IMG/VR virus record: IMGVR_UViG_3300043464_001836
Coordinates: 32,002 to 96,001 of that record
DNA: 64,000 bases
DNA from: a virus
Lineage: Duplodnaviria > Heunggongvirae > Uroviricota > Caudoviricetes
Direction: 5' to 3' (one strand)
Both the position numbers and the translations under genes were made by a program. Shown here piece after piece: positions 38,203 through 60,030 of the stretch. The notes below the pieces were generated by a model that searched no databases, was not told where the DNA came from, and saw only the letters and a list, made by a program, of their open reading frames with translations. Position 1 is the first letter of the stretch, and each line of letters starts with the position of its first letter.

Positions 38203-38571
38203 AAAATATACTTGATTTTGTCTAGTAGGTATGGCATAATAGGTAGGTAGAATAGAAGTAACGGGGTTAATACTATAAGGAAGGTAGGTATGTATCCTAA
38301 GAGCTTCCGCCTTTTGCCCAACCTCTTCAGTTTCTACAATTTAGGGTTGCCTGCTTCCCCAAAACTGAAAACGCAGAGGCACTAGACCTACCCTTGCTAC
38401 AACTTTTAGTAGGCATACTGAATTTTGTATAAGGTAGTTCTTTCTAGTGCTCCAGGGACCAATAGGCGGTAGTGCCTTCTTTGGATAAGCACCCAAGCTC
38501 CGCAAGAGCAGGCCGAAAACTGCGGTGTTGTTACTGAGTTTCTCGCCTAATCAAAGAAACTCAAAAGAATT

Positions 38572-43753: not shown

Positions 43754-43826
43754 GAACTGAACAGTTCGGCCCCACTAAGAGCTTAAGCTTTGAAGCTCTT
43801 AAGCTCTTAAGCTCTTAAGCTTTGAA

Positions 43827-43940
43827 GTTTGAAGTTTTGAAGTTTGAAGTTTGAAGTTTGAAGTTTGAAGTTTGAAGTTTGAAGTTTGAAGTTTGAAGTT
43901 TGAAGTTTGAAGTTTGAAGTTTGAAGTTTGAAGTTTGAAG
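43827..43940. repeat. Tandem 7-bp repeat (GTTTGAA)n, about 16 copies
   Basis: Uninterrupted GAAGTTT phase. Preceded by (GCTCTTAA)3 and followed by TTTGGGGTC. Confidence 0.8.
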
Positions 43941-43987
43941 TTTGGGGTCGAACAGTTCCTCAAATTCTTTTATAATTATTTCTTTAA

Positions 43988-44284
43988 ATGGAGAACGAAG
44001 TGCAAAAACATAAAGACCTAATCATTGCCTGGGCTAATGGTGCTACTATTCAGTATAGAACCGATAATATTTGGTACGATGTTCAAGATAATCATCCATC
44101 CTGGAGTAACCATACTGAATACCGTATTAAGCCTCAATTTGCTAATATTAAAGCAGTACCGGAAACTTATGGTTGTGATGGCTGCGTATTTAGCAATCAG
44201 ACGCGCTGTCACGATTTAATTAAAGGTTTGGTTACACTAGGCCTACCTAAATGTGCAGAAGGTTATATCTATGTCAAAGTGTGA
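43988..44284 (+). CDS. small Cys-motif protein, family member 1 (C-x2-C...LGLP-x-C...GYIY)
   Basis: Paralog of 49377..49547, 49540..49737 and 50975..51277. Conserved upstream TATAAT...ATGGAGAACG cassette. Confidence 0.45.
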   Translation: MENEVQKHKDLIIAWANGATIQYRTDNIWYDVQDNHPSWSNHTEYRIKPQFANIKAVPETYGCDGCVFSNQTRCHDLIKGLVTLGLPKCAEGYIYVKV

Positions 44285-44459
44285 GCAAGTATTCGTTAAA
44301 CGGTATGACGATACTATCGAGAAGGTAACGCTTACTGGACGTTGGTACGCGAATTCCAGTGGTAACTTGGGGTTTGAAGTTAAAACTTACTTCTGGCAAA
44401 AGCCTAAGTTTGTTTGGGAGAAAGATATTCGAGAGTTATATGGAGAACTATGTGAATAA
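44253..44459 (+). CDS. hypothetical protein
   Basis: ORF. Confidence 0.35.
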   Translation: MQKVISMSKCEQVFVKRYDDTIEKVTLTGRWYANSSGNLGFEVKTYFWQKPKFVWEKDIRELYGELCE

Positions 44460-44537
44460 GGATTACTTACCTCTAGTAATTATGCTAGTTATTGCCTCAC
44501 TAGTAGTTTTTGGTCCTTTCATTGTTGGAGCACTTTC

Positions 44538-44741
44538 GTGATTGTATCGTATAAAATTTCTGATAATGGCAGCATCCTAGCAGTAACGTACTCTCAGGGT
44601 TTTGTTGGCAAGTTACTTGGCTTTACTCCTGATATTGAGATTTATATCCTTATAGACGATGAGTGGATTAATGCTGATTCTCCTGGTGAAGAACTTCCTA
44701 AACCAATTAAAAACATTCTGAAGCGAGAAAACCTACTATGA
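44538..44741 (+). CDS. hypothetical protein
   Basis: ORF. Confidence 0.35.
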   Translation: MIVSYKISDNGSILAVTYSQGFVGKLLGFTPDIEIYILIDDEWINADSPGEELPKPIKNILKRENLL

Positions 44742-44959
44742 AAACTTTTCCTACTTTCGGCAAACTAGAAACTGCTAAGCCTTGCATGAAACGCCCTATC
44801 GTAGTTCATGCAGCTCAAATTAACGAGGAGTTCCGCGTTGAGTCTCTAGAAGGTAACTATGCTATTGGTAAGCCTGGTGATTATCTAATGACAGGCACCG
44901 CAGGTGAGCAATATATCTGCGATAAAGCTATCTTTAAAGCAACCTATGACTTCATCTAA
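44738..44959 (+). CDS. hypothetical protein
   Basis: ORF. Confidence 0.35.
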   Translation: MKTFPTFGKLETAKPCMKRPIVVHAAQINEEFRVESLEGNYAIGKPGDYLMTGTAGEQYICDKAIFKATYDFI

Positions 44960-45254
44960 TAAAGAACTAATCCTAGAATTCCTAGCTGTTAATAACTCTT
45001 GCTCTTCTAAACAGAATGCTGTTAACTCAGCCTTAAGGCTACTTAATGGAGATAATTGGATTATCTCCACGGTACCTACTGAAGTAGAGGAATTACTGTG
45101 GAAGCTACTAACCCAAATTATCGGAGCTGAAAAAGCTGACTGGCTACAGTGGTGGTTATATGAAGCAGAACAAAAGCCTTCTGTGACTTGGAAAGGCGTT
45201 AACACTATTCCTATTAACAACTTTGAAGACCTATGGGAGAACTGGCTAAAATGA
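44946..45254 (+). CDS. hypothetical protein
   Basis: Start set at the internal Met overlapping the upstream stop. Confidence 0.35.
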   Translation: MTSSNKELILEFLAVNNSCSSKQNAVNSALRLLNGDNWIISTVPTEVEELLWKLLTQIIGAEKADWLQWWLYEAEQKPSVTWKGVNTIPINNFEDLWENWLK

Positions 45255-45403
45255 CAAACAAAGAATTTATTGAAGCACTAGAAGAAATTATTAATGATGC
45301 GTATCTAGTACCTGAGATTAAGTACCAGTTACTAGTAGAAGCTATCGAAGAAATGAAGATGTATTTACTAGACTAAAGAGTAGGAAGTAAAAGGTAGAAA
45401 ATA

Positions 45404-46186
45404 ATGCAAATTAACACATTAGACCATGGGTTTGTCCGGCTAGTTGATTCTATGGGTAGTGATAGTGCAATAGTACAGGCTGCTAGAGTGTCTTATGGTG
45501 GAGGTACTAAAACTATGCTAGAGGATAGATCCTTGATTAGGTATTTAGTTAGAAACAAACATACTTCTCCATTAGAAATGGTTGAGTTCAAGTTTCACCT
45601 AAAAATGCCTATATTCATTGCTAGACAGCATATTAGACACAGGACTGCCAGCATTAATGAAGTATCCGCTAGGTACTCAGTAATGGGTGAAGAGTTTTAT
45701 ATCCCAGATGAAATTAGGGGCCAATCCGTAACTAACAAGCAATGTTCTGCAGGTGTAGTTGATGGCTCATTTATTACTGATCTAAAGGATACCTGTAACA
45801 ATGCTTATGAAGTATATCAAACTAGCATCAGTAATGGAGTGTCTAGGGAGTTAGCTCGCTGTCTTTTGCCAGTTAATCTGTACACTGAAATGTACTGGAA
45901 AATTGACGCACATAACTTACTACACTATATTAAGCTAAGACTCCATTCTCACGCCCAGAAAGAAATTCAAGTTTATGCTAAAGCAATGCTAGATCTTATT
46001 AAGCCCACAGTGCCTATGCTAGTTGAAGCTTTTGAGGATTATATTCTAAATGCTAGCACATTTTCGGCTAGAGAGCTAGAATTTATTAGGAGTGTTCCTC
46101 AATCTAATTGGGGGAGACAAGTAGCAAGTGAATGGTTCCAAGGAAGTGAGCTTAAGGAATTCCTTGAAAAACTAAAGGTAGAGTAA
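45404..46186 (+). CDS. thyX: Flavin-dependent thymidylate synthase ThyX
   Basis: ThyX signature RHRTASINEVSARY (RHRxxS), 260 aa. Confidence 0.85.
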   Translation: MQINTLDHGFVRLVDSMGSDSAIVQAARVSYGGGTKTMLEDRSLIRYLVRNKHTSPLEMVEFKFHLKMPIFIARQHIRHRTASINEVSARYSVMGEEFYIPDEIRGQSVTNKQCSAGVVDGSFITDLKDTCNNAYEVYQTSISNGVSRELARCLLPVNLYTEMYWKIDAHNLLHYIKLRLHSHAQKEIQVYAKAMLDLIKPTVPMLVEAFEDYILNASTFSARELEFIRSVPQSNWGRQVASEWFQGSELKEFLEKLKVE

Positions 46187-46352
46187 AAATTACATTTGAT
46201 TTTACTGTATGATTATTATATAATAGTCTGTAGCCTATAATAAGGCTAATAAGATATTACGTATAATTACAGGTTATGGGTGAAAAGGGTCGCTCCTCTG
46301 TCCTCTCCTCCAAGGACTAGCCCAGTTATTTGGCCACGGAGGTGGCTACACT

Positions 46353-47102
46353 ATGATTGAAGAAGAAATTTATAACCTTTTAGTCGAGCGGTTTGGGGTT
46401 AGCGAAGTCTTTTTACCAAAGAGAGGTAAAAAGAGACCTAGAACCATTACTTGGCTAGAATTTATTAAAGTAGTTCTACAGGTAGAACCAATGGCCCTAC
46501 CAAAGTTTTGTGGGTATTCTAATAGCAACTTTGGTACTGGTGTAAAAACATTGCATAGTGCTATAGTAAAGGAAAAAGGTAAAAGACAGTGGGCTCACTA
46601 CTTTCTAGCTTTGGTTGGCTATAAGAGATGTAGTGAATGTAAGATAATATTACCTGTAAAAACCTTTAACCGGAATACCCATAATACAGATGGCTTGCGA
46701 CCTAGCTGTAAAAATTGTGACGCCACTTATCGTAAGTCTAATAGGGCTAGTAAAAATGCGCTACAGGTTGTCTATTATAAGGCAAATAAAGAGCGTTATA
46801 GAGTTCTTAACAAAAAGTGGCGAGAATCTAATAAAGACCGTATTAAAGAGTACTGTGAAAAGAATAGACATATATTTGCAGCATATGCTGCAAAACGCAG
46901 AGCAATTAAGCTACAAGCAACCCCCAATTGGGCAAACCTCATAACTATAAAACAAATTTATGAAACGTGCCCTGATGGCTATCACGTAGACCATATAGTT
47001 CCTTTACAGAATCCTTTAGTATGTGGCCTTCATTGTGAGTTCAACCTTCAACATCTACCTGCCCTAGAAAACCTAACTAAGAGTAATAAATTTGAAATAT
47101 AG
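46353..47102 (+). CDS. HNH homing endonuclease (family 1 paralog)
   Basis: Shared N- and C-terminal modules. Conserved structured leader 46278..46352. Confidence 0.8.
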   Translation: MIEEEIYNLLVERFGVSEVFLPKRGKKRPRTITWLEFIKVVLQVEPMALPKFCGYSNSNFGTGVKTLHSAIVKEKGKRQWAHYFLALVGYKRCSECKIILPVKTFNRNTHNTDGLRPSCKNCDATYRKSNRASKNALQVVYYKANKERYRVLNKKWRESNKDRIKEYCEKNRHIFAAYAAKRRAIKLQATPNWANLITIKQIYETCPDGYHVDHIVPLQNPLVCGLHCEFNLQHLPALENLTKSNKFEI

Positions 47103-47204
47103 TAATAATATTCCCAATAGTCTATGGGATGACGAAACACTACAGATTTGGGGCTTTACCGGCTCTGAACTTAAAGAGCTTAAAGAAAAACTGGAGATTG
47201 AATA

Positions 47205-47564
47205 ATGCAAATTACTGGTCTAAAGCAAGAGTATAATGTGTGTACCTATGGTTTTTACGCAACCATAGAACTGCGCGTATCTGAGGAAGAGTTACTAGCA
47301 GTAGCTGAGCTAGCAGAAGTGGGTAAAGAAGTCTCTCTAGTAGAGAAGCAGCCTGTAGAGAACCTAGCACAAAAGCTGCGTAAGTCTCAGTATGAGAAGT
47401 TCTGTACGAAGGCACTAAAACTTATAGAAGCTCAGGTAGAGTCTTTCTCTTCTACCTTCGCAGTCTACGATAAACTCCTTCAACAGTATGTTGACGTCTT
47501 CTTTACTAGTAGGGGTTTCAGAGTTTCTCAGGTTAGAGACCATGAAGCAAAGGTGAGCTGGTAA
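47205..47564 (+). CDS. hypothetical protein
   Basis: ORF. Confidence 0.4.
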   Translation: MQITGLKQEYNVCTYGFYATIELRVSEEELLAVAELAEVGKEVSLVEKQPVENLAQKLRKSQYEKFCTKALKLIEAQVESFSSTFAVYDKLLQQYVDVFFTSRGFRVSQVRDHEAKVSW

Positions 47565-47764
47565 TGCTAGGAAGCGTAGTATTTATCGTAGCACTAACAC
47601 TATCTAGTGGTGAACACTATCAAGTGCCTACTCAATTCTTTGACAACCAAGTTCAGTGTATGGATGCAGCTATGACCCTAAGCTACACATACCGTAGAGC
47701 TGACCTAAAGAGCTATAGTTTGAAGTGTCTAAAGACTGTACCTGAAGTCGAAGAGAAAGAGTAA
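47564..47764 (+). CDS. hypothetical secreted/membrane protein
   Basis: N-terminal hydrophobic segment. Confidence 0.35.
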   Translation: MLGSVVFIVALTLSSGEHYQVPTQFFDNQVQCMDAAMTLSYTYRRADLKSYSLKCLKTVPEVEEKE

Positions 47765-47811
47765 AGTAACCTCTACAACCCCAAACTGCAATAACCTCTA
47801 AAGGATATGAT

Positions 47812-48108
47812 ATGGGAATGCGACCTGAACTACTTCTAGTACTAGAGTTTGATGACTCTATGGAAAGTATAGTTGACTTGTTTAAGATGGAAGATGAGGA
47901 AGATATTTATCTAGACCTTCCTAATAGTAATTGGTACACTAATAGTAGTAACCTAGAAATTTCTAGGAATTACTTAGCATTCGGTGTATTCTACGGTTGG
48001 GGTGAGGAACACGACCCCAAACAGTTAACCATAGCACTTAAAGATGCTAACTTCCTAGCAGAGTTCCTAACTAATCCTAGAGTCTACTGTACAATGAACT
48101 TCTGTTAA
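47812..48108 (+). CDS. hypothetical protein
   Basis: ORF. Confidence 0.35.
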   Translation: MGMRPELLLVLEFDDSMESIVDLFKMEDEEDIYLDLPNSNWYTNSSNLEISRNYLAFGVFYGWGEEHDPKQLTIALKDANFLAEFLTNPRVYCTMNFC

Positions 48109-48303
48109 CCCAAAGCCTCAAGCCTACGAAATAATGGGCTTGAGGCTTTACTTATTAAAAAGTACACTTGATTTTTATACCTAGCGTGTCGTATAATAAG
48201 TTTGTGAGCTAAAAGAATTTATATAGTTAAGGGCGAAAAGGGTAGCTCCCCTGGTCAACTCACAGACCTAGCCCAGGTATTACGACACAGTGAGGTGTCT
48301 TAA

Positions 48304-49023
48304 ATGATAGAAGAAATTTATACTGCTCTAGTTGAGCAGTTTGGGGTTGGAGTAGTATTCTTACCTAAGTATAGAAAGAATAGAGTTAAGGACATAACTT
48401 GGCTAGAGTTTATCGAAGCTGCTTTAGAAATAAGTACAGAAGAGCTATATAAGTATTGTGGTTACTCTGAGGCTACTAATTTTAGTAGAGGTTTAAGGCA
48501 AGCATACCCACATATAATAAAAGAAAAAGGTGGTAGACCTTGGAGATTATATCTCCCTACACTAGTACATAAGAGGCACTGCTGTTCCTGTGGTAGGTTG
48601 CTAGAGTATATTAATTTTAGTCCAGATAGTACAAAGAAAGATGGTTTACACTCTGAATGTAAATCCTGTAAGTTAGAGTATTACAAAGGTAACAAAAACC
48701 ATATTTTAGATAGACAGAGATACTACCGGCAAGCTAATACTGAACTTATTAAAGAGAGGCATAAAGAGTACTATAGTAATAACAAGTACCTATTTAATGC
48801 AAGAAATGCTAAGCGTAGAGCAACTAAACTACAGGCGACCCCAAATTGGGCAAACCTCATAACTATAAAACAAATTTATGAAACGTGCCCTTCTGGGTAC
48901 CATGTAGACCATATAGTTCCGTTACAGCATGACTTAGTGTGTGGCCTTCATTGTGAATTTAATCTTCAACATTTAACAGCTAAAGAAAACTTAAGTAAAG
49001 GTAATAAATTTGAGGTAGATTGA
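48304..49023 (+). CDS. HNH homing endonuclease (family 1 paralog)
   Basis: Shared modules. Conserved leader 48230..48303. Confidence 0.8.
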   Translation: MIEEIYTALVEQFGVGVVFLPKYRKNRVKDITWLEFIEAALEISTEELYKYCGYSEATNFSRGLRQAYPHIIKEKGGRPWRLYLPTLVHKRHCCSCGRLLEYINFSPDSTKKDGLHSECKSCKLEYYKGNKNHILDRQRYYRQANTELIKERHKEYYSNNKYLFNARNAKRRATKLQATPNWANLITIKQIYETCPSGYHVDHIVPLQHDLVCGLHCEFNLQHLTAKENLSKGNKFEVD

Positions 49024-49155
49024 GGTAGACTTAGATAAGCCCTGGGATTCTTTAGGATTCTAGGGCTTTTGCATTACTACGCTATAATTTTAAGCTTACT
49101 TTACCTACTTAATTACTTTATAATTACTTTATTGGTATAGCTTATAGGAACAAAA

Positions 49156-49380
49156 GTGGAAAGCATTCTGGTTGATGGTAGGAAGTATAAGTACCGTATA
49201 GTTAAAGAAGGCGGTATGTTCAAGTGGTTTATTATAGTGTATGAAGGTGGTTTTAATTACTACATTCCTATCACTCTCGATAATGATTATTTATATAATA
49301 AATATGGGGATAGTCCTGGTGGCCAAGCAGAGGTTGCTGAAAAGATTAAAGACTATTTCGCTGAGGAGCATTACATATGA
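49156..49380 (+). CDS. hypothetical protein
   Basis: ORF. Confidence 0.35.
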   Translation: MESILVDGRKYKYRIVKEGGMFKWFIIVYEGGFNYYIPITLDNDYLYNKYGDSPGGQAEVAEKIKDYFAEEHYI

Positions 49381-49547
49381 TTAAGATTACTGTTGTTGCT
49401 AAACCTGTCGAAACTATCACTTGTACTGGGTGTCTTAGAGAGCTCTATCCTGGTTGTTCAAATGAGGATGTTGATTTCCTAGTAAATCTAGGACTACCTA
49501 GCTGTCATGACGGTTATATTTACATCCTGGAGAAGAAAGATGATTAA
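49377..49547 (+). CDS. small Cys-motif protein, family member 2
   Basis: CTGC...C...LGLPSC..GYIYILEKKDD. Not in the track (56 aa). Confidence 0.4.
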   Translation: MIKITVVAKPVETITCTGCLRELYPGCSNEDVDFLVNLGLPSCHDGYIYILEKKDD

Positions 49548-49737
49548 AACTGTAAATATTGTAGCAAAGCCTTCTGGTAGGAATAGCTGTGGAGGCTGCC
49601 TCCTGATGGGTATTGGCTGCTCATCTATGGTTGGTGACCACTTTGAAGACCCTAGGGTTGATTTCGTTTTCAGTCTAGGACTTCCTGATTGTGTTCTAGG
49701 GTACATTTACGTTTTGGAGAAGAAAGATGAAGTTTAA
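49540..49737 (+). CDS. small Cys-motif protein, family member 3
   Basis: CGGC...C...LGLPDC..GYIYVLEKKDE. Tandem with member 2. Confidence 0.4.
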   Translation: MIKTVNIVAKPSGRNSCGGCLLMGIGCSSMVGDHFEDPRVDFVFSLGLPDCVLGYIYVLEKKDEV

Positions 49738-49936
49738 GATTTACATTATCAATGAGGCTGGAGAGCAGGTTAGGTATAAACCTAATAAAGGAGAAATGCT
49801 AGTAATGAACTCTCAAGGGGTTTACTTTGTTTATAACAACGAACCATTCTACCCCTCTATTACTAGACTATACGATAAGATTGGGAACTATATAGTAGTT
49901 TGGGAGAAAGAAAAGCTACTTGAGGTTCTTAAATAG
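49727..49936 (+). CDS. hypothetical protein
   Basis: ORF. Confidence 0.35.
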   Translation: MKFKIYIINEAGEQVRYKPNKGEMLVMNSQGVYFVYNNEPFYPSITRLYDKIGNYIVVWEKEKLLEVLK

Positions 49937-49998
49937 TTTCAACCTCTAAAGTTTGGGGTCGAATGCTTTAACGAAATACTCTATAATTACTTTATTGA

Positions 49999-50295
49999 AT
50001 GGAGAACGAAATGGAATTCCTTAAACTACTTATTAAAGACTTGAAAGATACTTTCACTGGTAACTCTCCCAAAGTACCTGAAAAAACTTATGCTGAAATG
50101 GTTAGGGAGATTCATGTTCAACGGTTCTGTGAAGGTTTGCTACTCAGCATTGAATACGATAAGTCTGGTGATATGCAGCGTGATGTTCGTATTGAGGATG
50201 CATCTTTACGAGAGCGGACAATTAATTTTCTAAATGAAAAGGGTTTTATTGTCAAAGTATTTCATGCTTCTAAAACTATTCAAGTTAAATGGTGA
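49999..50295 (+). CDS. hypothetical protein
   Basis: Same promoter/ATGGAGAACG leader as the Cys-motif family. Confidence 0.35.
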   Translation: MENEMEFLKLLIKDLKDTFTGNSPKVPEKTYAEMVREIHVQRFCEGLLLSIEYDKSGDMQRDVRIEDASLRERTINFLNEKGFIVKVFHASKTIQVKW

Positions 50296-50675
50296 AACCA
50301 ATGCTATATTTAATTCGCGGTGTGCCCGGTTCTGGTAAGTCTACAAAGGCTAGAGAACTACTAGAACAAGGGCTAGCTACTGTTCATCTAGAAGCTGATA
50401 TGTATTTTGAAGATGAAGAAGGTAACTATAAGTTTGAGCCTACTAAGATTGGTAGAGCACATAGCTGGTGTTTGTACCTTACTAGAAAGCACTTAGAAGA
50501 AGGGCACAACGTAGTTGTCTCTAATACCTTTATTAAGCGTTGGGAACTAGCTAAGTATGTTGCACTAGGATTTCCTTATGAGATCATTGAGTGTAAAGGT
50601 AGCTACGAGAGTGTACACGGTGTTCCGGCTGAAGTTGTTGCTAGAATGAAAGCTAACTATCAAGAGCTTGAGTAA
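50289..50675 (+). CDS. Polynucleotide 5-prime-kinase, kinase domain only (T4 Pnk N-domain-like)
   Basis: P-loop GVPGSGKSTKARE aligns with the T4 Pnk GCPGSGKSTWARE block. Pnk-like residues follow downstream. 128 aa, no phosphatase domain. Confidence 0.55.
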   Translation: MVKPMLYLIRGVPGSGKSTKARELLEQGLATVHLEADMYFEDEEGNYKFEPTKIGRAHSWCLYLTRKHLEEGHNVVVSNTFIKRWELAKYVALGFPYEIIECKGSYESVHGVPAEVVARMKANYQELE

Positions 50676-50716
50676 CACTTTCTACAATTAACACTTTCTA
50701 CAATTTGGGGTAAGAG

Positions 50717-50911
50717 ATGATTAAGATTTATTACTGGTGTGATGGTTGCTGGTGTTACTACAATGAGATTGGTCAGATGAGCCATAAGTCTGATGACTAC
50801 GCTACCCTAGAAGTACCTGATGAGTTTTGTGATCTAGAAATTGATGCGCTAGTTCATGATTTAGTAGCTAAAGAAGTGCTATCATTTGCAGAACTGTTTC
50901 ATAACCTCTAA
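50717..50911 (+). CDS. hypothetical protein
   Basis: ORF. Confidence 0.3.
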   Translation: MIKIYYWCDGCWCYYNEIGQMSHKSDDYATLEVPDEFCDLEIDALVHDLVAKEVLSFAELFHNL

Positions 50912-50974
50912 AACTTAAGAGCTTAAGTTTGGGGTTAACTTTTCTAGTAAAACCTTCTATAATTATTTCTTTGA

Positions 50975-51277
50975 ATGGAGAACGCAATGAAGAAGCATAA
51001 AGAACTAGTAATTGCTTGGCTTAACGGGGCTAAGATTCAGTATAGGCATAATGGCTGTGGTTGGACTGATATTGATGAGCCTAACTGGATAGAAAATATG
51101 GAGTATCAAGTTAAGCCATCCTACACTGAGGAAGTTAAGATTAAAGCAGTAGAAGGTGCTTACTGTGGTGGATGCATCTTTGAAGATCAGATGGTTTGTG
51201 GTTCCCTCATTACCACTATGGAGCTACTAGGACTTCCTAGCTGTCGTGAAGAGGCTATTCACTATGAAACTAATTAA
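50975..51277 (+). CDS. small Cys-motif protein, family member 4
   Basis: CGGC...C...LGLPSC motif. About 40 percent identical to member 1. Confidence 0.45.
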   Translation: MENAMKKHKELVIAWLNGAKIQYRHNGCGWTDIDEPNWIENMEYQVKPSYTEEVKIKAVEGAYCGGCIFEDQMVCGSLITTMELLGLPSCREEAIHYETN

Positions 51278-51536
51278 AGATTTTTTGCAGCGTAGACGTA
51301 ATGCACTTAAAGTAATAAAAGAGGTTGAAGCTGGTTTGTGGGAGCGCTATAGCACTATAGGTAGTAATGCAATGCAACTACATAAAGAAGACTGGCGGCT
51401 ACATATCGCTAATAAAACTGCTTTTCTATATAATTCTAAATACAACACAGAATCAATGCTAGGTGATTTTTGGGGTAGGTTTGTTTATGCCGTCTTGTGC
51501 AAAAAGCCTGTTAAGCCTAGCGCACCTGTTTACTAG
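51246..51536 (+). CDS. hypothetical protein
   Basis: ORF. Confidence 0.35.
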   Translation: MKRLFTMKLIKDFLQRRRNALKVIKEVEAGLWERYSTIGSNAMQLHKEDWRLHIANKTAFLYNSKYNTESMLGDFWGRFVYAVLCKKPVKPSAPVY

Positions 51537-51636
51537 AACATAAGTTTAACAATACGCAAGTTTAACCAATTTCACAACTAGAAGTTTACGGTTTACCAAT
51601 TCAACAGTTAGAAGTTTACGGTTTGGGGTCAAGAGA

Positions 51637-52416
51637 ATGAAGCCACTAGTAATGAAGAAAGAACATAACGGATTGACCATGCTTAAGTACTCTAAGCGAG
51701 TGTTCTGGGACAATCTATGGAACGATGAATTAATTGAGTGTCGTGGGCGGGTTGTTGACTCTGAAGGTAACGTAGTAGTAAACCCGTTCACCAAGGTTTT
51801 CAACTATCTAGAAAATGATACCAAAGTTCCACTAGACGAAGTTGTACTAGCAGTTGAAAAGATTAACGGTTTTATGGCAGCTCTTACGTGGCATGACGAA
51901 GCGTGGCTAGTAACGACTACTGGTTCTTTCGACTCTAAGTACGTTGAAATTGCTAAGCGTTACATTGGAGATTCTGGGCTACCTGAGCTAAATGGTGTTA
52001 CTTATTTGTTTGAGATTGTAGCGCCGGAAGATCCTCATATTATTCCTGAGCTAGAAGGAGCTTATCTACTAGGATACCGTACCGCTGGTTCACTAGTATA
52101 CACCTCTTATCTAGAAAAGGAAAAGAAGCTAGACTCACTAGCACGACAGTTTGGATATAAGCGTCCTAAGTACTTTCAGGCTACGTTTGGTGAGGTACTA
52201 GAGTTATCTAAGAAAGTTAGGCATGAGGGTTTTTGCATCTATGGTTCTGTTAACTTCAAGCTAAAGTCACCTTGGTATCTACAGTCTAAAGCTATTGCAC
52301 GCTCTAACCGTCGTCTAGCTCTTGACGAAGAGTTCTCTCAAATGCTCCTAGAAATGCCTAAGGTCTTGGGTGAGCAAGAGCGACTAGAGTTCATTCGTAA
52401 CTACTTTAAGGTCTAG
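51637..52416 (+). CDS. RNA ligase, Rnl1 family (T4 RnlA-like), short form
   Basis: LIECRGRVVDSEGNVV...NPFTKVFNYLEN aligns with T4 Rnl1 ALECRGIMFEMDGEKPV...NPFT. Motif I region AVEKINGFMAAL aligns with T4 LTKEDGSLVS. Confidence 0.55.
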   Translation: MKPLVMKKEHNGLTMLKYSKRVFWDNLWNDELIECRGRVVDSEGNVVVNPFTKVFNYLENDTKVPLDEVVLAVEKINGFMAALTWHDEAWLVTTTGSFDSKYVEIAKRYIGDSGLPELNGVTYLFEIVAPEDPHIIPELEGAYLLGYRTAGSLVYTSYLEKEKKLDSLARQFGYKRPKYFQATFGEVLELSKKVRHEGFCIYGSVNFKLKSPWYLQSKAIARSNRRLALDEEFSQMLLEMPKVLGEQERLEFIRNYFKV

Positions 52417-53532
52417 AAATGGAAATAGAAATGGAATTAGAAAGTGTTACTGACCCCAAACTGCAAATCTTTAACTTGGAACCGTTAAGAGTGCTTTCCC
52501 CAAACCGTAAAAGGTGATTAAACTGTAAAATCTAGTTCACTAGAAAACCTAAATGAACTAGAAAGATTGGCCCTGGCTGTTGTAGCTAGGGCTTTTTCTT
52601 TGGTTCTAGGTGGTTTCGACTGTTAAAGCAGTTTGATAAGTTTGGGGTGGGATACAACTAGTCGAACTCTCGATTTTTCCAGTTTGGGGTGACTTTTAAT
52701 GAAGCGAAAAAATACACTTGAACATCGAGCGAATTTTCCGATAAAAATATAGGTGAGATTTTCTGATTTAGATGTGGTAGGAAAATGCGAAAACAGCGAA
52801 AAATAAATTTTGATAATGTCCCTCGCTACGGTTTTCCCAGTTTGGGGTCCACGTTTGCTATCGTTTCTACACTGAAAAATTGCTTGAGAAAAAAAAATAT
52901 TGTTTTTGTAGTGACAGGAGTGTATAATGTTAGGAACAGAACGACAGATGCGCTGCTTTAGAGAAACAGCAGATAGGTTTTTTCACCATGGATAAAAGGC
53001 CTATCTGCTCTATAAAGTCTAAAGCAAGCGCATCTGTACACGAGGGCGAAGCTGTAATTATTAAAATCAAAGAAAAAAAGACGTAAAATAAGAATGTTTC
53101 GGGTTTTTACCGTTTTCCGTTGATTTTAAGCGAACTGAGCCACCCCTTCTCAAGCGGTTTCTAGAGAAAAGAATTTCTAGAAATGTTAAATTAATATTCT
53201 CCAGCCCTTTCTAATTCCTAGAAAGGTAATTTCTTGATATATTTAGGTTTTTTCGACTTTTTGGAATTTTGATTTCTACAATTTGGGGTCAGAAAAGCGC
53301 AGAACCAGTTTGACCCCAAACCGCAAGGGTTTCTAATCCGCTTTTGACCCCAAACTGGAAAAATCGGTCAAACCTATAAAGTTTGTGCTATCTAGTGTGT
53401 AATTTTGAGGTTGAAAGTCTCTACAGTTTGGGGTAAAATATTATTTAAGATGTAAGTGGGTGAGGACTGTGGTTTGTAAGTTCTTATTACCACTTAAAAT
53501 AATACCAAACCAAGTCAGTAAAGGAAACAAAA

Positions 53533-54422
53533 TGAAGCAGAGTAATTCAAAACAGCAAAGTAACCTAGCCTCACTAGAAGTAGACTTCTTACGTGCGGCT
53601 TTAGAAAATCCAAGTCTAATTAAGACTAACGATAAAGACTGGTTAACACACATTAAGCCAGTAGTAACGGCAGCACGCCCTACTATAGAAATTAATAAAA
53701 ATACTAGACTTTCTATGGAGCAACTTTTTAGCTTCTTAGGTACATCTAAAGTCCTAGAAGGAGGTTATACTACAGAGCAAGTACGCCTAGTTTACAGGAT
53801 TCTAGCTACGCACAACCGCTCAGATTACGTAGTGTCACAAAGTAAAAATACACAACACTCTTCTGCGGTACCTATTATCATGGCTGCTTACAGAGATAAG
53901 TACCAGATTAAGTACTCTAGTTGGATTCACGACCATATTGGAATGTCTAACGCTATTTTAGGTAAAACCCTATCCGAGGTTCTAGAGGTTAAAGAATACC
54001 TAGATTCACTAGGTAAGCAAGCAAAGCGTGCTCAAAAAACCTACGACACGGAGATGGGAGATAGTGAGTATGAAGACATGCTAGGCATTGAATCTCCTAG
54101 CCATGAGCCTATTGATGTATTTGACTTTGACTTTAGAGTGGACCTAAAGAATAGAGCCACCAAAAACGGTTCTATTCTAGATACTGGATATGCAACAATT
54201 AAGCGAGTATTCAAACCTGACCACCCACTAGGGTCGGAGTTTTTATCCAAGTTCTACTGGCACATGCTAACGCAGACATGGATTTTCTCACCAAGTATTC
54301 GCCACCGTGACATGATTACTAATTTGCAGGATTTTGATGTACTAGATCCTTCATTGACACCTCTAACAAACTTAGAGGATAAGTCCAACCCTAGCAAGAA
54401 AAGCTCTTTACTAGATTGGTAA
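53533..54422 (+). CDS. hypothetical protein (about 296 aa) embedded in the repeat-rich zone
   Basis: ORF with ribosome-binding site AAGGAAACAAAATG. A rho-independent terminator follows. Confidence 0.45.
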
Positions 54423-54424
54423 CA

Positions 54425-54452
54425 AAAAAGCCGCTAAATAGCGGCTTTTTGC
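54425..54452 (+). terminator. Rho-independent terminator
   Basis: AAAAAAGCCGCTAAATAGCGGCTTTTTGC. Confidence 0.65.
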
Positions 54453-54628
54453 ATTTCTTGACCCCAAACCGTAGAAATCTGACAAATTGACCACAAACCA
54501 AGACATTTTAGAGGTTTTTGTGACTTTTTGTGGGTATTTGAAACTTGTGAGATTTTAGTAACTTTTGAGGTTTGGGGTAAACGGTTCAGCAGTTTTTCCA
54601 GTTTGGGGTAAGGCTTATAAATACACGG

Positions 54629-54658
54629 TTGACAATTATTGCTGTGGAGATGTATAAT
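54629..54658 (+). promoter_or_regulatory. Consensus sigma70 promoter (TTGACA, 18-nt spacer, TATAAT)
   Basis: TTGACAattattgctgtggagatgTATAAT. Confidence 0.6.
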
Positions 54659-54664
54659 AGGCGC

Positions 54665-54750
54665 CGTGTTGAATTTAGCGCAAAACTTACGACTTATAAC
54701 TTATAACTTATAACTTACAAGTCGTAAGCTGCTGGGTTTTTCCCCCAAAC
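54665..54750 (+). ncRNA. candidate small RNA: long hairpin (CTTACGACTT...AAGTCGTAAG) followed by a T-run
   Basis: Transcript predicted from the promoter at 54629. Ten-bp stem with a 23-nt (TAACTTA)n loop, then GGTTTTTCCCCC. Confidence 0.35.
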
Positions 54751-54858
54751 CGCAGAAACTGCTCAACCCCAGAATCTTGACCCTAAACTGGAGAACTTGC
54801 TGAGGTGTGGGTGTTGCATAGGTCACTACAGTTTGGGGTCAGGCACAGTAATTTGCGG

Positions 54859-54888
54859 TTGATTTTATACTATACGGAGATGTATAAT
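54859..54888 (+). promoter_or_regulatory. Near-consensus sigma70 promoter (TTGATT, 18-nt spacer, TATAAT)
   Basis: TTGATTttatactatacggagatgTATAAT. Confidence 0.55.
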
Positions 54889-54894
54889 GGGCGC

Positions 54895-54978
54895 CGAGTG
54901 GAATTTAACGCAAAACTTACGACTTATAAGTTATGAGTTACAACTTATAAGTCGTAAGTTTTGCGTTTTTACCCCAAA
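54895..54978 (+). ncRNA. candidate small RNA, paralog of 54665..54750
   Basis: Same hairpin (CTTACGACTTATAAG...CTTATAAGTCGTAAG) and T-run. Confidence 0.35.
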
Positions 54979-54999
54979 CCGCAGAAACTGCAGAAACTT

Positions 55000-55428
55000 C
55001 TAGGATTTAGTAAGGTCCTTTAATTCCAGTAGTAGATAGTTAATATTACCTACCGCTTTAGCATGATCCTTTTCAATAATAACTGGATCTTGAAGTATTT
55101 TAACAAAGAACTTTATTAGTGCTATTACTTCCTCCATAGTACTTCTAGGGAATAAAAAGTTCCACATATCCTGTTCTTCCGGAGTTGTTAAAGTACTTAA
55201 AACATCTACTTGCAGTATCTTAGGCCCCTCTTCTGAGTCTTCCATAGTAAGAGGTTCGCCACTTAGATACTTCTTATATAAATCACTATCTTTAAAGAAG
55301 GGCTTAGTTTTAGCTTTAACGTAGTACTTTAGTGTACTCTCCGGGATACCTATAGTTTGCGCAATATCTCCCCAAGTGTACCCTTGTTCCCTAGCTAGAG
55401 ATACAAGCTGCTTAATTTTATCATCCAT
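55000..55428 (-). CDS. HTH DNA-binding protein
   Basis: N-terminal HTH YTWGDIAQTIGIPESTLKYYVK. Confidence 0.45.
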   Translation of the reverse strand: MDDKIKQLVSLAREQGYTWGDIAQTIGIPESTLKYYVKAKTKPFFKDSDLYKKYLSGEPLTMEDSEEGPKILQVDVLSTLTTPEEQDMWNFLFPRSTMEEVIALIKFFVKILQDPVIIEKDHAKAVGNINYLLLELKDLTKS

Positions 55429-55657
55429 TTCTTAATTCTCCTATTACTACACTTTTCTATAAACTTACAACTTATGACTCATAACTTACAACTTATAACT
55501 TATAACTTACAAGTCGTAAGTTAATATTTTACCCCAAACCGCTAACCTGTTCAACCTCAGATTTTTACCCTAAACCGCGGAAATTAGGTTAGTCGCTACA
55601 GTTTGGGGTTGCGGGGGACTGCTACAGTTAGTTCAGTTTGGGGTCAGGAATCTGGCC

Positions 55658-55687
55658 TTGATTTTACATGATGTGGAGAAGTATAAT
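55658..55687 (+). promoter_or_regulatory. Near-consensus sigma70 promoter (TTGATT, 18-nt spacer, TATAAT) reading into the GGCGC-repeat and 9-mer array region
   Basis: TTGATTttacatgatgtggagaagTATAAT. Confidence 0.55.
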
Positions 55688-55900
55688 TGGCGCAGACTAG
55701 TACTAGAAACGAATTTTGAGGTTGACTCGGTTTCGTACTGGCGGGCGCAGAGATAATACTGATGTTGTTTCGATTTTGCACTAGGGCGCGTAGATAATTT
55801 TGCGCTTGTTTCACTTTTTCACTGGGGCGCGTGGCAAGCTTAAAATTGTTTCGTCGATTTACTACTCAGGCGCGGCGAAGCCGCGCTGGCCCGGAGGGCC

Positions 55901-57186: not shown

Positions 57187-57606
57187 ATGGCCGAAAGCAA
57201 AAAAACCCCGACGTGGACGCCGGAACAGACTGTTTCTCTTGTGGCCGCATGGGATGCGGTTAACCGGGACAATAAGCGTATCGACGAAGTAGCGGCAAAG
57301 ATGGGCCGTAGTGCCGCGTCCTGCCGCATGAAGCTTGTTCGGGAAGGCTTGTATCAAAAAGCGGAAAATCTGACAAAAACGGGGGAAAGCGTAATTTCCC
57401 GCGAGGAATTGGCTGATTCTATCGCCGCCTATCTGCCCGCCACCGTTTCTGATGACGTTAGCAGCCTCGCCAAGACGAATAAGCGAATTCTCAAAGCAAT
57501 CAAAAAATTGCTGGATGAAAACGCTCAATTCCGGAAAGCGGCAATGGAATCTTTCGAGACTGACGCGGAAACCGTGGAAACGGAAAACCCGGAATTGGCT
57601 GATTAA
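57187..57606 (+). CDS. hypothetical protein (island)
   Basis: ORF followed by a terminator. Confidence 0.4.
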   Translation: MAESKKTPTWTPEQTVSLVAAWDAVNRDNKRIDEVAAKMGRSAASCRMKLVREGLYQKAENLTKTGESVISREELADSIAAYLPATVSDDVSSLAKTNKRILKAIKKLLDENAQFRKAAMESFETDAETVETENPELAD

Positions 57607-59571: not shown

Positions 59572-60030
59572 AAACCGCTTGCAAAGTGTACGGAAAGCCG
59601 GATAGAATATCGGCTTTCCAATACAGGATGAATGAGATGAAAAAAATCCTTGCATTTTCTGAGTATCAGCGGGTTAACTTCTATAAGACTCGCCGTGTTT
59701 CGTTTTTTCAAATTTTGGTCGATATATTATTCCGGTAAAAAACGCTTGACAAAATCGCGGACACCTGCTACACCGCGATTTTGTCAGTTGTTTCACTTTT
59801 ATCACTTCCAGGGGGGCGGTTATCAGACTTTTCATTTTCCGTAACCCTATCGCACCCCCGCGCGCGGTAAATTAAAAAATTTATCAAAACTAGAATATAT
59901 TGTACTGTACTGTACTGACCCCAAACTGTAAATCTTGTCAGTTTGTTCTAGTTAAAAATAGGCTTGATTTTATATTCGTATTATTGTAGAATGCACTAAC
60001 AGTTAAAAATTCTACTACCAAAAGAAGGCC

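What the first reader, a model, noticed from the sequence alone, without database searches (positions are those of the whole stretch)
43790..55640. AGTTTGGGGT(C/A) decamer repeated about 30 times on both strands, concentrated in the ORF-poor 52.4-55.7 kb zone
Copies include 43936, 49952, 50705, 50931, 51622, 52642, 52688, 52842, 53283, 53428, 54573, 54603, 54832, 55603 and 55632 on the plus strand. Reverse-complement copies are at 47775, 52456, 53318, 53347, 54462, 54745, 54971, 55533, 59920 and 61345. Where a gene follows, the motif sits about 45 bp upstream of a TATAAT, in the position of an UP or activator site. This suggests a phage-specific transcription-factor binding site, such as a late or middle activator, massively reiterated in a regulatory hub. 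Alternative roles are a packaging/terminal-repeat landmark or a site-specific nicking signal.
Basis: seen in the sequence. Interest (0 to 1): 0.65.

Follow-up and report, generated by a model that had tools for sequence, protein, structure and literature searches.

The report
Reiterated protein-binding box in T5-like pre-early region
The repeated AGTTTGGGGT is real: it is the invariant core of a ~20-bp box that fills the non-coding "first-to-enter" control region of a previously undescribed distant relative of phage T5, in the place where T5 itself has DnaA boxes, and it is most likely a docking site for a still unidentified DNA-binding protein.

Summary
Observation confirmed. AGTTTGGGGT with ≤1 mismatch occurs 40 times against 3.6 expected. 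The exact core GTTTGGGGT occurs 27 times, 15 of them in 5% of the window (p≈4e-13), and 22 of 27 copies are non-coding. The decamer is the 3' core of an asymmetric ~20-bp element, CARTTTYTRCRGTTTGGGGTMA.

The window is a distant T5-like phage. The ORF-poor zone lies where T5 and PG07 have their pre-early/terminal-repeat region, and a relative carries an A1 homolog between the zone and TerS. T5 and PG07 have DnaA boxes in these untranslated regions. This clade has none and has this element instead.

The element is conserved in relatives down to 41% protein identity. Its flanks diverge, and whole units are gained, lost or tandemly amplified. Three placements are conserved:
- exactly 19 nt upstream of the -35 of TTGAYW-18-TATAAT-NGGCGCMG promoters;
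- inside the spacer of two convergent promoters;
- 22 nt upstream of the TATAAT of three -35-less leader cassettes.

Pairs also sit upstream of TerS pointing away from it in 7 of 7 contigs.

Best reading: an operator/iteron-like site for an unidentified protein. It is not the adjacent HTH protein. The binder and the function remain unproven. This is a new variant of a known kind.

The parts
52417..55700 (.). Motif-rich untranslated zone. It holds 21 element copies, 11 on + and 10 on -, arranged in five '(-)(-) (+)(+) then rightward promoter' clusters.
52453..52505 (-). Two element copies (cores end at 52461 and 52505; the second has core GTTTGGGGA) at the left edge of the zone, just after the RNA-ligase gene.
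   Evidence: 27.4 and 26.1 bits.
52640..52848 (+). Three element copies (cores start at 52640, 52682, 52840).
53281..53289 (+). Element copy of the ATTTGGGGT variant. It forms a 24-nt inverted repeat with the copy at 53355(-).
   Evidence: I14.
53313..53355 (-). Two element copies (53321, 53355).
   Evidence: 27.4 and 33.5 bits; conserved in L350.
53411..53439 (+). Promoter-like site TTGAAA-17-TAAAAT upstream of the 296-aa gene, with element copy 53426(+) filling its spacer. It is one arm of a 62-nt inverted repeat.
   Evidence: I3.
53532..54422 (+). 296-aa protein of unknown function. It is the only gene of the zone itself that is conserved in all element-bearing lineages examined (66% and 41% identity). 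Candidate binder.
   Evidence: No family or fold match.
54461..54498 (-). Two copies (54469, and a degenerate GTTTGTGGT at 54498) right after the terminator of the 296-aa gene.
   Evidence: Both copies are intact in L099.
54570..54609 (+). Two copies (54570, 54601). Copy 54601 lies 19 nt upstream of the -35 at 54629.
54629..54666 (+). Consensus promoter TTGACA-18-TATAAT-AGGCGCCG. It is followed by a short hairpin RNA (54679-54728).
54742..54788 (-). Two copies (54750 with core GTTTGGGGG, 54788 with core GTTTAGGGT) after the first hairpin.
54831..54896 (+). Element copy 54831, then 19 nt, then promoter TTGATT-18-TATAAT-GGGCGCCG. This is a paralog of the unit at 54601-54666.
   Evidence: D4, D6.
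54907..54967 (+). Perfect 26-bp-stem hairpin, terminator-like, made of the ACTTATA-type repeats that co-vary with the HTH allele.
   Evidence: z=-9; I10.
54971..54979 (-). Element copy with the best weight-matrix score (36 bits), right after the hairpin.
55000..55428 (-). 142-aa HTH protein. It is probably not the binder of the element; its likely operators are the flanking heptamer/hairpin repeats.
55526..55554 (-). Promoter-like site TTGAAC-17-TAAAAT for the HTH gene, with element copy 55539(-) in its spacer. It is the second arm of the 62-nt inverted repeat.
   Evidence: I3.
55567..55575 (-). Element copy (GTTTAGGGT variant).
55601..55644 (+). Two direct copies at the right edge of the zone. 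In L350 this position is expanded to 8 tandem copies with a 26-bp period.
55658..55695 (+). Promoter TTGATT-18-TATAAT-TGGCGCAG, 13 nt downstream of copy 55636. Its ortholog in L356 has the 19-nt spacing.
43940..43997 (+). Leader cassette: element, 22 nt, TATAATTAYTT...GGAGAACG, start codon. First of three.
49951..50008 (+). Second leader cassette, in front of a gene that is not a paralog of the other two.
50927..50984 (+). Third leader cassette.
50703..50711 (+). Intergenic copy abutting the start codon of ORF 50717.
51621..51629 (+). Intergenic copy abutting the start codon of the RNA-ligase gene (51637).
47778..47786 (-). Intergenic copy. It is the only clear copy left of the zone that lies on the minus strand.
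38339..38365 (.). Degenerate inverted pair: ATTTAGGGT on + and TTTTGGGGA on -.
13565..13573 (+). High-scoring copy (31.9 bits) abutting the 3' end of tRNA-His on the opposite strand. Conserved in L346.
59918..59926 (-). Copy about 105 nt upstream of TerS, pointing away from it. The position and orientation are conserved in 7 of 7 contigs and amplified to 4-7 copies in L350.
61341..61349 (-). Copy (GTTTGGGGG) overlapping the last codons of the 277-aa ORF. Conserved in L087-L089.
57187..57606 (+). 139-aa protein in the A2 position (upstream of A1 in L350). Conserved in all three lineages. Weak profile match to T5/PG07 A2. Candidate binder.
60031..60477 (+). T5-type small terminase.
   Evidence: (PF26823).

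Best explanation
AGTTTGGGGT is the invariant core of an asymmetric ~20-bp DNA element, CARTTTYTRCRGTTTGGGGTMA. This element is the reiterated building block of the untranslated pre-early region of a distant T5-like phage clade. That region is the equivalent of T5's first-step-transfer/terminal-repeat region.

I propose that the element is the recognition site of one sequence-specific DNA-binding protein and works as an operator array. Occupancy would switch the pre-early and early promoters that are position-locked to it:
- the element is centred near -64, just upstream of an A/T-rich UP-like tract, at the strong TTGAYW-18-TATAAT-NGGCGCMG promoters;
- it is centred near -44 at three -35-less leader cassettes;
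- it lies inside the spacer (about -20) of the two convergent promoters of the 296-aa and HTH genes, where binding should repress.

The same arrays bracket the region, from the zone edges to the array upstream of TerS. They could therefore also serve a DNA-level role, such as injection stop or marking the repeat boundary, in the place that paired DnaA boxes hold in T5.

What is shown: over-representation, non-coding location, extended consensus, conservation and turnover, fixed spacings, synteny, and the absence of DnaA boxes.

What is inferred: that a protein binds, which protein it is (candidates: the A2-like 139-aa protein, the 296-aa protein, TerS, or a host factor), and the direction of any regulation.
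For: 1. Statistics and non-coding bias.
2. A 20-23-nt information profile with an invariant core.
3. Conservation: L350 (~71% nt identity over the neighbouring gene) keeps the cores while the flanks diverge and whole units are gained or lost. L356/L357 (neighbouring protein 41% identical) carry the variant core ATTTGGGGT as their top 9-mer. L353 (43% identical) has one upstream copy and a 4x tandem array.
4. Fixed spacing with unrelated spacer sequence: 19 nt to the -35 in the window (twice), L099, L350 and L356/L357. All 3 of 3 NGGCGCMG promoters and 3 of 3 leader cassettes have the element. The 22-nt spacing to TATAAT also holds before a non-paralogous gene.
5. Two paralogous convergent promoters carry the element in their spacer; this is conserved in L350.
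6. Position matches the T5 pre-early region: the PG07 layout, an A1 homolog in L350 (36% identity, E=9e-87), and T5-type TerS and nickase.
7. T5 and PG07 have DnaA boxes in these regions and no element. The window, L350 and L356 have no DnaA boxes there and 9-27 element cores.
8. Copies upstream of TerS have a conserved orientation in 7 of 7 contigs.
Against: - No binder was identified. The 296-aa protein has no recognisable fold or family, and the A2 link of the 139-aa protein is weak (hhalign E=0.005, probability 7%).
- Many copies have no promoter at a consistent distance. Some follow terminators, two abut start codons, and one abuts a tRNA.
- Orientation relative to transcription is mixed outside the zone: 6 sense, 4 antisense.
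- At promoter 55658 the spacing is 13 nt, not 19.
- The copies upstream of TerS are inverted and at variable distance (38 to about 120 nt) from the TerS promoter.
- Tandem arrays of 8 copies (L350) are unusual for operators.
- All promoters are consensus predictions; there are no TSS data.
- Fixed spacings among paralogous or orthologous units could partly reflect shared ancestry.
Confidence: 0.5

Rival explanations
1. The element is mainly a DNA-transaction signal rather than a transcriptional one. The arrays would mark and organise the terminal repeat, acting as an injection-stop signal analogous to T5 iss, or as a terminase/A1-A2 recognition landmark at the repeat boundaries. The binder would be a host membrane-associated factor, TerS or the A2-like protein.
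For: - The zone occupies the T5 terminal-repeat/iss position, and the element replaces DnaA boxes, which Davison proposes as the iss determinant.
- Conserved arrays lie in the gap upstream of TerS, where the genome left end lies in T5/PG07-type maps. Their orientation is conserved in 7 of 7 contigs and they are tandemly amplified in L350.
- Arrays sit at both edges of the zone.
- The inverted '(-)(-) (+)(+)' clusters and the 62-nt inverted repeat resemble T5's IRC/IRD architecture.
- Contigs from independent assemblies often break inside the zone.
Against: - Termini and the repeat were not mapped.
- 21 copies over 3.3 kb, plus promoter-locked spacings and copies in early-gene intergenic regions up to 14 kb away, are not needed for a boundary signal.
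- No array upstream of TerS exists in PG07.
- Contig breaks are equally well explained by the repeats themselves.
Confidence: 0.25
2. The element is an iteron of a replication or control origin, and the 296-aa protein is the initiator. The gene is flanked by arrays and its promoter is overlapped by a site, giving autoregulation as in iteron plasmids and P1.
For: - Arrays lie on both sides of the only gene of the zone conserved across lineages.
- An element sits in its promoter spacer.
- The unit is about 20 bp, and tandem arrays have 23-26-bp periods in L350 and L353.
Against: - The protein shows no initiator, helicase-loader or HTH fold or family.
- There are no DnaA boxes, and I did not look for an AT-rich unwinding element.
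- Spacing in the window is irregular (26-135 bp).
- T5 origins are reported near the genome centre.
- Copies upstream of TerS and at leader cassettes are not explained.
Confidence: 0.08
3. The element is a Chi-like, end-polar signal that attenuates a host exonuclease (RecBCD/AddAB) entering from the virion DNA ends.
For: - The core is G/T-rich.
- Outside the zone, 9 of 10 clear copies point toward the zone regardless of gene strand or GC skew, and both orientations occur inside the putative repeat.
- How the T5 left end escapes RecBCD is an open problem.
Against: - About 17-20 nt are conserved, far longer than any known Chi (my knowledge: 5-8 nt).
- With the left end placed upstream of TerS by synteny, the first copies met are in the inactive orientation, and 4 kb including the A1 operon would be unprotected.
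- The polarity rests on few copies. Most lie in the + strand gene block, and the L356 early region has none.
- T5 has only two host Chi sites in its repeat.
- No host was found.
Confidence: 0.06
4. The element is itself a promoter, or part of one, for a phage-specific RNA polymerase or sigma factor. The model is T7: a ~23-bp conserved block ending in an initiating G run.
For: - The conserved block is 20-23 nt with GGGG followed by purines.
- The location is non-coding.
- Two copies lie immediately 5' of start codons.
Against: - No RNA polymerase or sigma gene was seen in the ~80 kb examined, and T5-likes use the host enzyme.
- Four of ten outside copies are antisense to genes, including all copies upstream of TerS.
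- The element lies at fixed distances from ordinary sigma-70-type hexamers.
- Tandem arrays of 8 copies are unlike promoters.
Confidence: 0.03
5. The element is a selfish or neutral dispersed repeat, spreading by duplication and slippage in non-coding DNA with no sequence-specific function.
For: - Copy number changes by tandem duplication, and whole units are inserted or deleted between relatives.
- Partial duplications lie next to copies, for example (TTTGAAG)n at 43821-43944.
Against: - The core is invariant while the flanks diverge, at 41-43% protein identity distance.
- Positions, orientations and spacings are conserved across lineages.
- There are no terminal inverted repeats or target-site duplications typical of mobile elements.
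Confidence: 0.05

Closest known systems
Untranslated repeat regions / injection-stop signal (iss) of the T5 left terminal repeat (Wang et al. 2005; Davison 2020, bioRxiv 10.1101/866236)
   Same: - Same genomic position: between TerS/A1-A2 and the early genes.
- ORF-poor region with strong sigma-70 promoters.
- Many direct and inverted repeats and palindromes.
- A tandem array and Pu-GCGC-type repeats nearby.
- A short protein-binding box reiterated in pairs and in inverted clusters.
- More conserved than the neighbouring ORFs.
   Different: - The box is not a DnaA box. There are no TTWTNCACA matches in the zone, whereas T5 and PG07 have them.
- About 21 copies instead of 8.
- Copies are position-locked to promoters and also scattered in early-gene intergenic regions and upstream of TerS.
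- No 131-bp IRC/IRD pair; only a 62-nt inverted repeat at 71% complementarity.
- Terminal repeat and two-step injection are not demonstrated here.
Dispersed asymmetric operators of phage regulators: mycobacteriophage L5 gp71 'stoperators' and P1 C1 operators (from my own knowledge, not checked in papers here)
   Same: - Asymmetric 13-17+ bp sites.
- About 20-30 copies per genome.
- Almost exclusively in short intergenic regions.
- Some overlap promoters.
- Conserved within a phage cluster.
   Different: - Those are repressor sites of temperate phages, and stoperators share one orientation relative to transcription. Here orientation is mixed (6 sense, 4 antisense outside the zone).
- No integrase or immunity repressor was seen.
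- The phage is T5-like and presumably virulent.
- Most copies are packed into one 3.3-kb zone.
Iterons of plasmid and phage replicons such as P1 and F (from my own knowledge)
   Same: - Repeats of about 20 bp flank a conserved gene on both sides.
- One site overlaps the gene's promoter.
- Tandem arrays have 23-26-bp periods in relatives.
   Different: - No evidence that the 296-aa protein is an initiator.
- Irregular spacing and mixed orientation.
- No DnaA boxes.
- Additional promoter-locked and TerS-proximal copies.
T4 MotA boxes and mobile promoter cassettes (PeSLs) of T4-type phages (from my own knowledge)
   Same: - A phage-specific box at a fixed distance upstream of a sigma-70 -10 hexamer replaces the -35 at a set of early-region genes.
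- The promoter-leader cassette is shared by non-homologous small genes.
   Different: - The box is centred near -44, not -30.
- Only 3 of about 31 copies are of this type.
- No MotA/AsiA homologs were looked for or seen.
Chi sites (from my own knowledge)
   Same: G/T-rich core, with apparent polarity toward the presumed DNA ends.
   Different: Much longer conserved unit, locked to promoters, wrong orientation at the TerS-side end, and no host evidence.

Membership tests
T5-type FST/terminal-repeat untranslated repeat regions (iss) | Lies in the pre-early region, between TerS/dmp-A1-A2 and the early genes. | tested here: met
   PG07 and T5 layouts. An A1 homolog lies between the zone and TerS in L350. 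T5-type TerS and nickase are present.
T5-type FST/terminal-repeat untranslated repeat regions (iss) | About eight DnaA / DnaA* boxes in pairs inside the inverted repeats. | tested here: not met
   No TTWTNCACA in 52.4-57 kb of the window or in the equivalent regions of L350 and L356. T5 and PG07 have them, including pairs with a 3-bp gap.
T5-type FST/terminal-repeat untranslated repeat regions (iss) | A large inverted-repeat pair (131-bp IRC-spacer-IRD and its partner) some kb apart. | tested here: inconclusive
   Only a 62-nt, 71%-complementary pair 2.1 kb apart (53382-53443 / 55522-55583), plus many 24-50-nt inverted repeats.
T5-type FST/terminal-repeat untranslated repeat regions (iss) | Lies inside a long direct terminal repeat of virion DNA and halts DNA transfer. 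| not testable with these tools
   No reads or virion data. Contig breaks in the zone are ambiguous.
Operator / activator-site array of a sequence-specific regulator | Fixed position relative to core promoter elements, kept while the intervening sequence diverges. | tested here: met
   19 nt to the -35 in the window (twice), L099, L350 and L356/357. 22 nt to TATAAT at 3 cassettes. In the spacer of 2 promoters. One exception has a 13-nt spacing.
Operator / activator-site array of a sequence-specific regulator | An identified cognate DNA-binding protein. | tested here: inconclusive
   The HTH protein at 55000-55428 is disfavoured. The 296-aa protein is unassignable. The 139-aa protein is only weakly A2-like.
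Stoperators (L5-type) | Single orientation relative to the direction of transcription. | tested here: not met
   Outside the zone 6 copies are sense and 4 antisense. Orientation inside the zone is mixed.
Chi sites | Short (5-8 nt) motif, enriched and strand-skewed in the host genome. | tested here: not met
   About 17-20 nt are conserved. No host was identified; the genome scan gave only chance hits.
Chi sites | The 5'->3' direction points toward the DNA end from which the nuclease enters. | tested here: inconclusive
   9 of 10 outside copies point to the zone. The copies upstream of TerS point away from the synteny-inferred left end.
Replication iterons | Regularly phased direct repeats next to an initiator gene, with DnaA boxes and an AT-rich unwinding element. 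| tested here: inconclusive
   Arrays flank the 296-aa gene, and relatives show 23-26-bp periods. Spacing in the window is irregular, there are no DnaA boxes and there is no initiator signature.
Terminase recognition (pac/cos) sites | A few sites clustered next to the terminase genes at the cleavage site. | tested here: inconclusive
   Adjacency to TerS with conserved orientation holds in 7 of 7 contigs. Most copies, however, lie 4.4-7.6 kb upstream of TerS, and the cleavage site is unknown.

The most novel reading that the evidence does not exclude
In this clade the GTTTGGGGT box has functionally replaced the DnaA boxes of T5-like phages as the cis-acting element that organises first-step DNA transfer (injection stop and resumption) and pre-early shut-off. 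It would be read by the phage's own A2-like protein or by a non-DnaA host factor. If so, the T5 two-step injection signal is an array of inverted protein-binding boxes whose identity can be swapped. The A1-containing and A1-lacking variants seen here would then be natural experiments on that mechanism.
Probability: 0.2. Interest if true: 0.75.

Novelty: new variant of a known kind. Interest (0 to 1): 0.55.

Why it matters
How T5 stops and restarts DNA injection, and what its conserved untranslated repeat regions and the A2 DNA-binding protein do, has been open for decades. The current proposal relies on DnaA boxes that were found in all 25 T5-like phages compared (Davison 2020).

This clade is clearly T5-like. 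It has T5-type TerS and nicking endonuclease, an A1 homolog in some members and the same gene order. Yet it has no DnaA boxes and carries a different, much more numerous box in the same places. That gives a comparative test of whether the architecture matters or DnaA itself.

It also supplies a compact, testable 20-26-bp unit and three candidate binders: the A2-like 139-aa protein, the 296-aa protein and TerS. The promoter-locked spacings offer simple reporter experiments.

If the element is only a lineage-specific operator, it is a useful annotation feature for this uncultured phage group, but not surprising.

Tried and rejected
1. Megablast of the zone and of 20 kb of the window against 50,697 phage records found no relative, only a tRNA match.
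2. Single-protein searches of IMG/VR with the 320-aa ORF and the HTH ORF found nothing.
3. A scan for the exact 15-mer TTTCCAGTTTGGGGT gave 86 single chance hits with no enrichment.
The hits were ciliate-telomere-like and unrelated, and none carried the extended element.
5. The tighter two-copy pattern on bacterial genomes gave more than 120 single hits from unrelated taxa. None had multiple high-scoring elements, so no host or prophage was found.
6. Paper searches for the sequence strings returned only primer matches in macrophage papers.
7. For the 296-aa protein, Pfam, PHROGs, NCBIfam and PDB sequence searches found nothing. The AlphaFold2 model had pLDDT 59. Foldseek against PDB and BFVD gave nothing interpretable. 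hhalign against T5 A1 and T5.011 was negative.
8. The HTH protein compared with T5 A2 showed no similarity.
9. An Rfam E-value scan of the zone found nothing credible.
10. Host Chi in T5 as a precedent for a Chi array: only two sites.
11. Reading the element as a sigma-70 -10 hexamer (TACAGT) or a Bacteroidetes -7 box (TAnnTTTG) was rejected on the consensus: A at hexamer position 2 occurs in only about 37% of copies, and the spacing is wrong.
12. Low-scoring matrix hits in the minus-strand block (11412, 15378, 16363, 33173) lie in plausible coding sequence and have core mismatches. I dropped them from the polarity argument.

Full report
**Observation.** The motif is real and far beyond chance.
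- The exact 11-mer AGTTTGGGGTM occurs 11 times against 0.05 expected.
- AGTTTGGGGT with ≤1 mismatch occurs 40 times against 3.6 expected, with a maximum of 10 in 100 shuffles.
- The exact 9-mer GTTTGGGGT occurs 27 times. Fifteen copies lie in 52417-55700, which is 5.1% of the window (binomial p=4e-13), and 22 of 27 are non-coding.
- Five exact cores are in coding sequence. Three of them sit at the same place in one paralogous ORF family (38682, 46353, 48304), and I treat these as coding coincidences.

**Anatomy.** Aligning 30 copies shows that the decamer is the 3' part of an asymmetric element of about 20-23 nt. The consensus is CARTTTYTRCRGTTTGGGGTMA, with an invariant TTTGGGG core and a weaker upstream TTTYTRC.

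A weight-matrix scan finds 43 hits of ≥13 bits. The 31 clear non-coding copies are these:
- 21 in the zone;
- 8 to its left (13565, 38339, 43940, 47786, 49951, 50703, 50927, 51621);
- 2 to its right (59926, 61349).

Inside the zone the copies form five clusters with the same grammar. Each has two minus-strand copies, then one or more plus-strand copies, then a rightward sigma-70-type promoter.

**What the window is.**
- TerL is about 50% identical to T5-like Vibrio, Yersinia and Salmonella phages.
- There is a 14-18-gene tRNA cluster.
- DnaB, primase and PolA lie at the left.
- The early-type genes NAMPT, PRPP synthetase, ThyX and RNA ligases lie at 35-52 kb.
- A T5-type small terminase starts at 60031, and a T5-type nicking endonuclease, portal and capsid follow TerL.
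- No close relative exists among 50,697 phage records.

In T5 and in the collapsed record of Vibrio phage PG07 the order is TerL-TerS-(pb5)-dmp-A1-A2-[untranslated]-small genes-[untranslated iss]-early genes. The zone lies in exactly that position.

In the relative L350, the genes between the zone and TerS include a clear A1 homolog (549 aa, 36% identical to T5 A1, E=9e-87). Upstream of it lies a 139-aa gene that is conserved in all lineages. It shows a weak profile match to A2 (E=0.005, 79 columns, probability only 7%).

The zone is therefore the pre-early (FST/terminal-repeat-equivalent) control region of a distant T5-like phage. Whether it is physically a terminal repeat could not be tested.

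**Comparative evidence.** Exact-protein look-ups and family searches recovered relatives at three depths.

1. *Near-identical strains (L099-L105).* These keep every copy. In L099 the HTH gene is replaced by a 33%-identical allele, and the adjacent heptamer/hairpin repeats change with it. The GTTTGGGGT elements and the promoter do not change. This argues that the HTH protein recognises the heptamer repeats and not this element.

2. *L350 (~71% nt identity over the 296-aa gene).* The cores are conserved while flanks diverge. Indels add or remove whole units. Two sites are tandemly amplified. One has 8 copies at a 26-bp period, all on +, at the right edge of the zone. The other has 4-7 copies, all on -, upstream of TerS.

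3. *L356/L357 (296-aa homolog 41% identical, syntenic) and L353 (43% identical).* The element is present with core ATTTGGGGT and is the top 9-mer. One copy lies upstream of the homolog, and a mixed-orientation cluster follows its terminator.

A tighter two-copy scan of IMG/VR found four more contigs with TerS 66-70% identical. Each has an element pair just upstream of TerS. In all seven contigs these copies point away from TerS.

**Relation to promoters.** Three placements recur.

1. The element lies exactly 19 nt upstream of the -35 of TTGAYW-18-TATAAT-NGGCGCMG promoters. This holds in the window (54601, 54831), L099, L350 and L356/357. The 19-nt spacers are unrelated in sequence apart from an A/T-rich tract. 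The third window promoter of this class has a 13-nt spacing. All 3 of 3 such promoters in the window have the element.

2. The element lies 22 nt upstream of the TATAAT of a -35-less promoter-leader cassette (TATAATTAYTT...GGAGAACG, then the start codon). This occurs at three genes, one of which is not a paralog of the others. All 3 of 3 cassettes have the element.

3. The element fills the 17-nt spacer of TTGAA(A/C)-17-TAAAAT at the promoters of the 296-aa and HTH genes. These two promoters form a 62-nt inverted repeat and are conserved in L350.

Other strong promoter-like sites in the window (46196, 48168) have no element. All promoters here are consensus predictions.

**Comparison with T5.** Davison (bioRxiv 10.1101/866236) describes three highly conserved untranslated repeat regions in the T5 left terminal repeat. 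The arrangement centres on about eight DnaA boxes in pairs inside large inverted repeats, and he proposes it as the injection-stop signal.

I confirmed consensus DnaA boxes in the corresponding regions of T5 and PG07, including pairs with a 3-bp gap, and found no GTTTGGGGT elements there. The window, L350 and L356 have no DnaA box in the equivalent regions and 9-27 element cores instead.

Next to the motif zone there are about 41-bp direct repeats containing GGGCGCR. T5's nick consensus is Pu-GCGC. There is also a fast-evolving tandem array, with 9-bp units in the window and 27-bp units in L350. These echo T5 repeat region 3.

**Interpretation.** The most economical reading is a sequence-specific protein-binding site that is used many times. 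It has an asymmetric 20-bp footprint and an invariant core under selection. It lies only in non-coding DNA and keeps conserved positions, orientations and spacings.

I favour an operator-type role in switching pre-early and early promoters (confidence 0.5). A DNA-level role is possible as well or instead, in injection stop, repeat-boundary marking or packaging (0.25).

The candidate binders are the A2-like 139-aa protein, the 296-aa protein, TerS, or a host factor. None could be confirmed. T5 A2 is a dsDNA-binding dimer of unknown specificity that is needed for second-step transfer.

**Polarity.** Outside the zone, 9 of 10 clear copies point toward it, while only 6 of 10 are sense to local transcription. 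This prompted a Chi-like hypothesis. I rate it low (0.06) for five reasons:
- the conserved unit is much longer than any Chi;
- the copies upstream of TerS point the wrong way for the synteny-inferred left end;
- the early region of L356 has no copies;
- T5 offers no precedent, with only two host Chi sites;
- no host was found.

The iteron, phage-specific-promoter and selfish-repeat readings are listed with their evidence among the rivals.

The feature is a new variant of a known kind, namely the reiterated-box architecture of T5-like pre-early untranslated regions, built here from a new box in place of DnaA boxes. Interest is moderate (0.55). It would be higher if the box proves to be the injection-stop or A2 target.

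Noticed in passing
window 17602-17879 (-): A permuted (two-piece type) tmRNA-like gene inside the phage tRNA cluster (Rfam RF04321, 74 bits against a gathering score of 47). ARAGORN did not call it. It might hint at the host group.
   Followed up: no
window 54680-55530; L099 9710-10310: The 142-aa HTH gene and its flanking (ACTTATA)n/hairpin repeats behave as a swappable module. A variant strain has a 33%-identical 152-aa allele with different repeats (CGATTTGCGTTTTA) behind the same promoter. This suggests allele-specific operators.
   Followed up: partly
window 55700-55890 (also L350 3020-3190, L356 11340-11480): Three to four ~41-bp direct repeats containing GGGCGCR. T5's nick consensus is Pu-GCGC, and a T5-type nicking endonuclease gene follows TerL in a contig that encodes the identical TerL. 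These are candidate nick sites.
   Followed up: partly
window 55901-56084; L350 3190-3520: A tandem array of 9-bp units (AAACGTCAA x20). In the relative it is replaced, at the same place, by 27-bp units (x8). This is a fast-evolving array comparable to T5's DRD repeats.
   Followed up: partly
window 57997-58701 versus L350 4922-6571: A1 presence/absence polymorphism. L350, and another contig with identical TerL, carry an A1 homolog (549 aa). The window, L088/L089 and L356 instead have a 234-aa ORF with a DnaQ-like DTET motif. T5 needs A1 for second-step transfer.
   Followed up: partly
window 58715-58837: (GGCCTGGGGT) x12, a 10-bp tandem array between ORFs that is G-rich on the + strand. It could form a G-quadruplex. 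The relatives have a different sequence of the same length there.
   Followed up: no
window 43821-43944: (TTTGAAG) x17.6 heptamer array that runs directly into the element copy at 43940. Other copies are also preceded by partial duplications of their own 5' half (50673-50705, 51560-51624).
   Followed up: no
window 38682, 46353, 48304, 61525, 11614, 19592, 25461, 29749 (ORF starts): A family of about nine paralogous ~240-aa ORFs with no Pfam hit, scattered through the genome and variably present in relatives. They are probably mobile (homing-endonuclease-like) genes. They contain core-like sequences in both orientations within coding sequence.
   Followed up: partly
window 13565-13573 (+), tRNA-His 13568-13643 (-): A high-scoring element copy overlaps the ACCCCA 3' end of tRNA-His on the opposite strand. 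It is conserved in L346. No explanation.
   Followed up: no
window 54664-54760 and 54894-54990: The two strongest promoters drive ~90-nt units that fold into very stable hairpins (z=-5.4 and -9.0) ending in a U run. These are possible small RNAs or protein-bound palindromes. No Rfam family matched.
   Followed up: partly
L345-L348 (left extension of the window): Relatives differ by an intein/LAGLIDADG insertion in the PolA gene (L347). A helicase with intein and LAGLIDADG domains is also present (L345).
   Followed up: no
T5 NC_005859 8127 and 8689 (L107): The only two E. coli Chi sites in the first 36 kb of T5 both lie in the terminal repeat, on the + strand. They therefore point toward the right end in the right repeat copy.
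   Followed up: no
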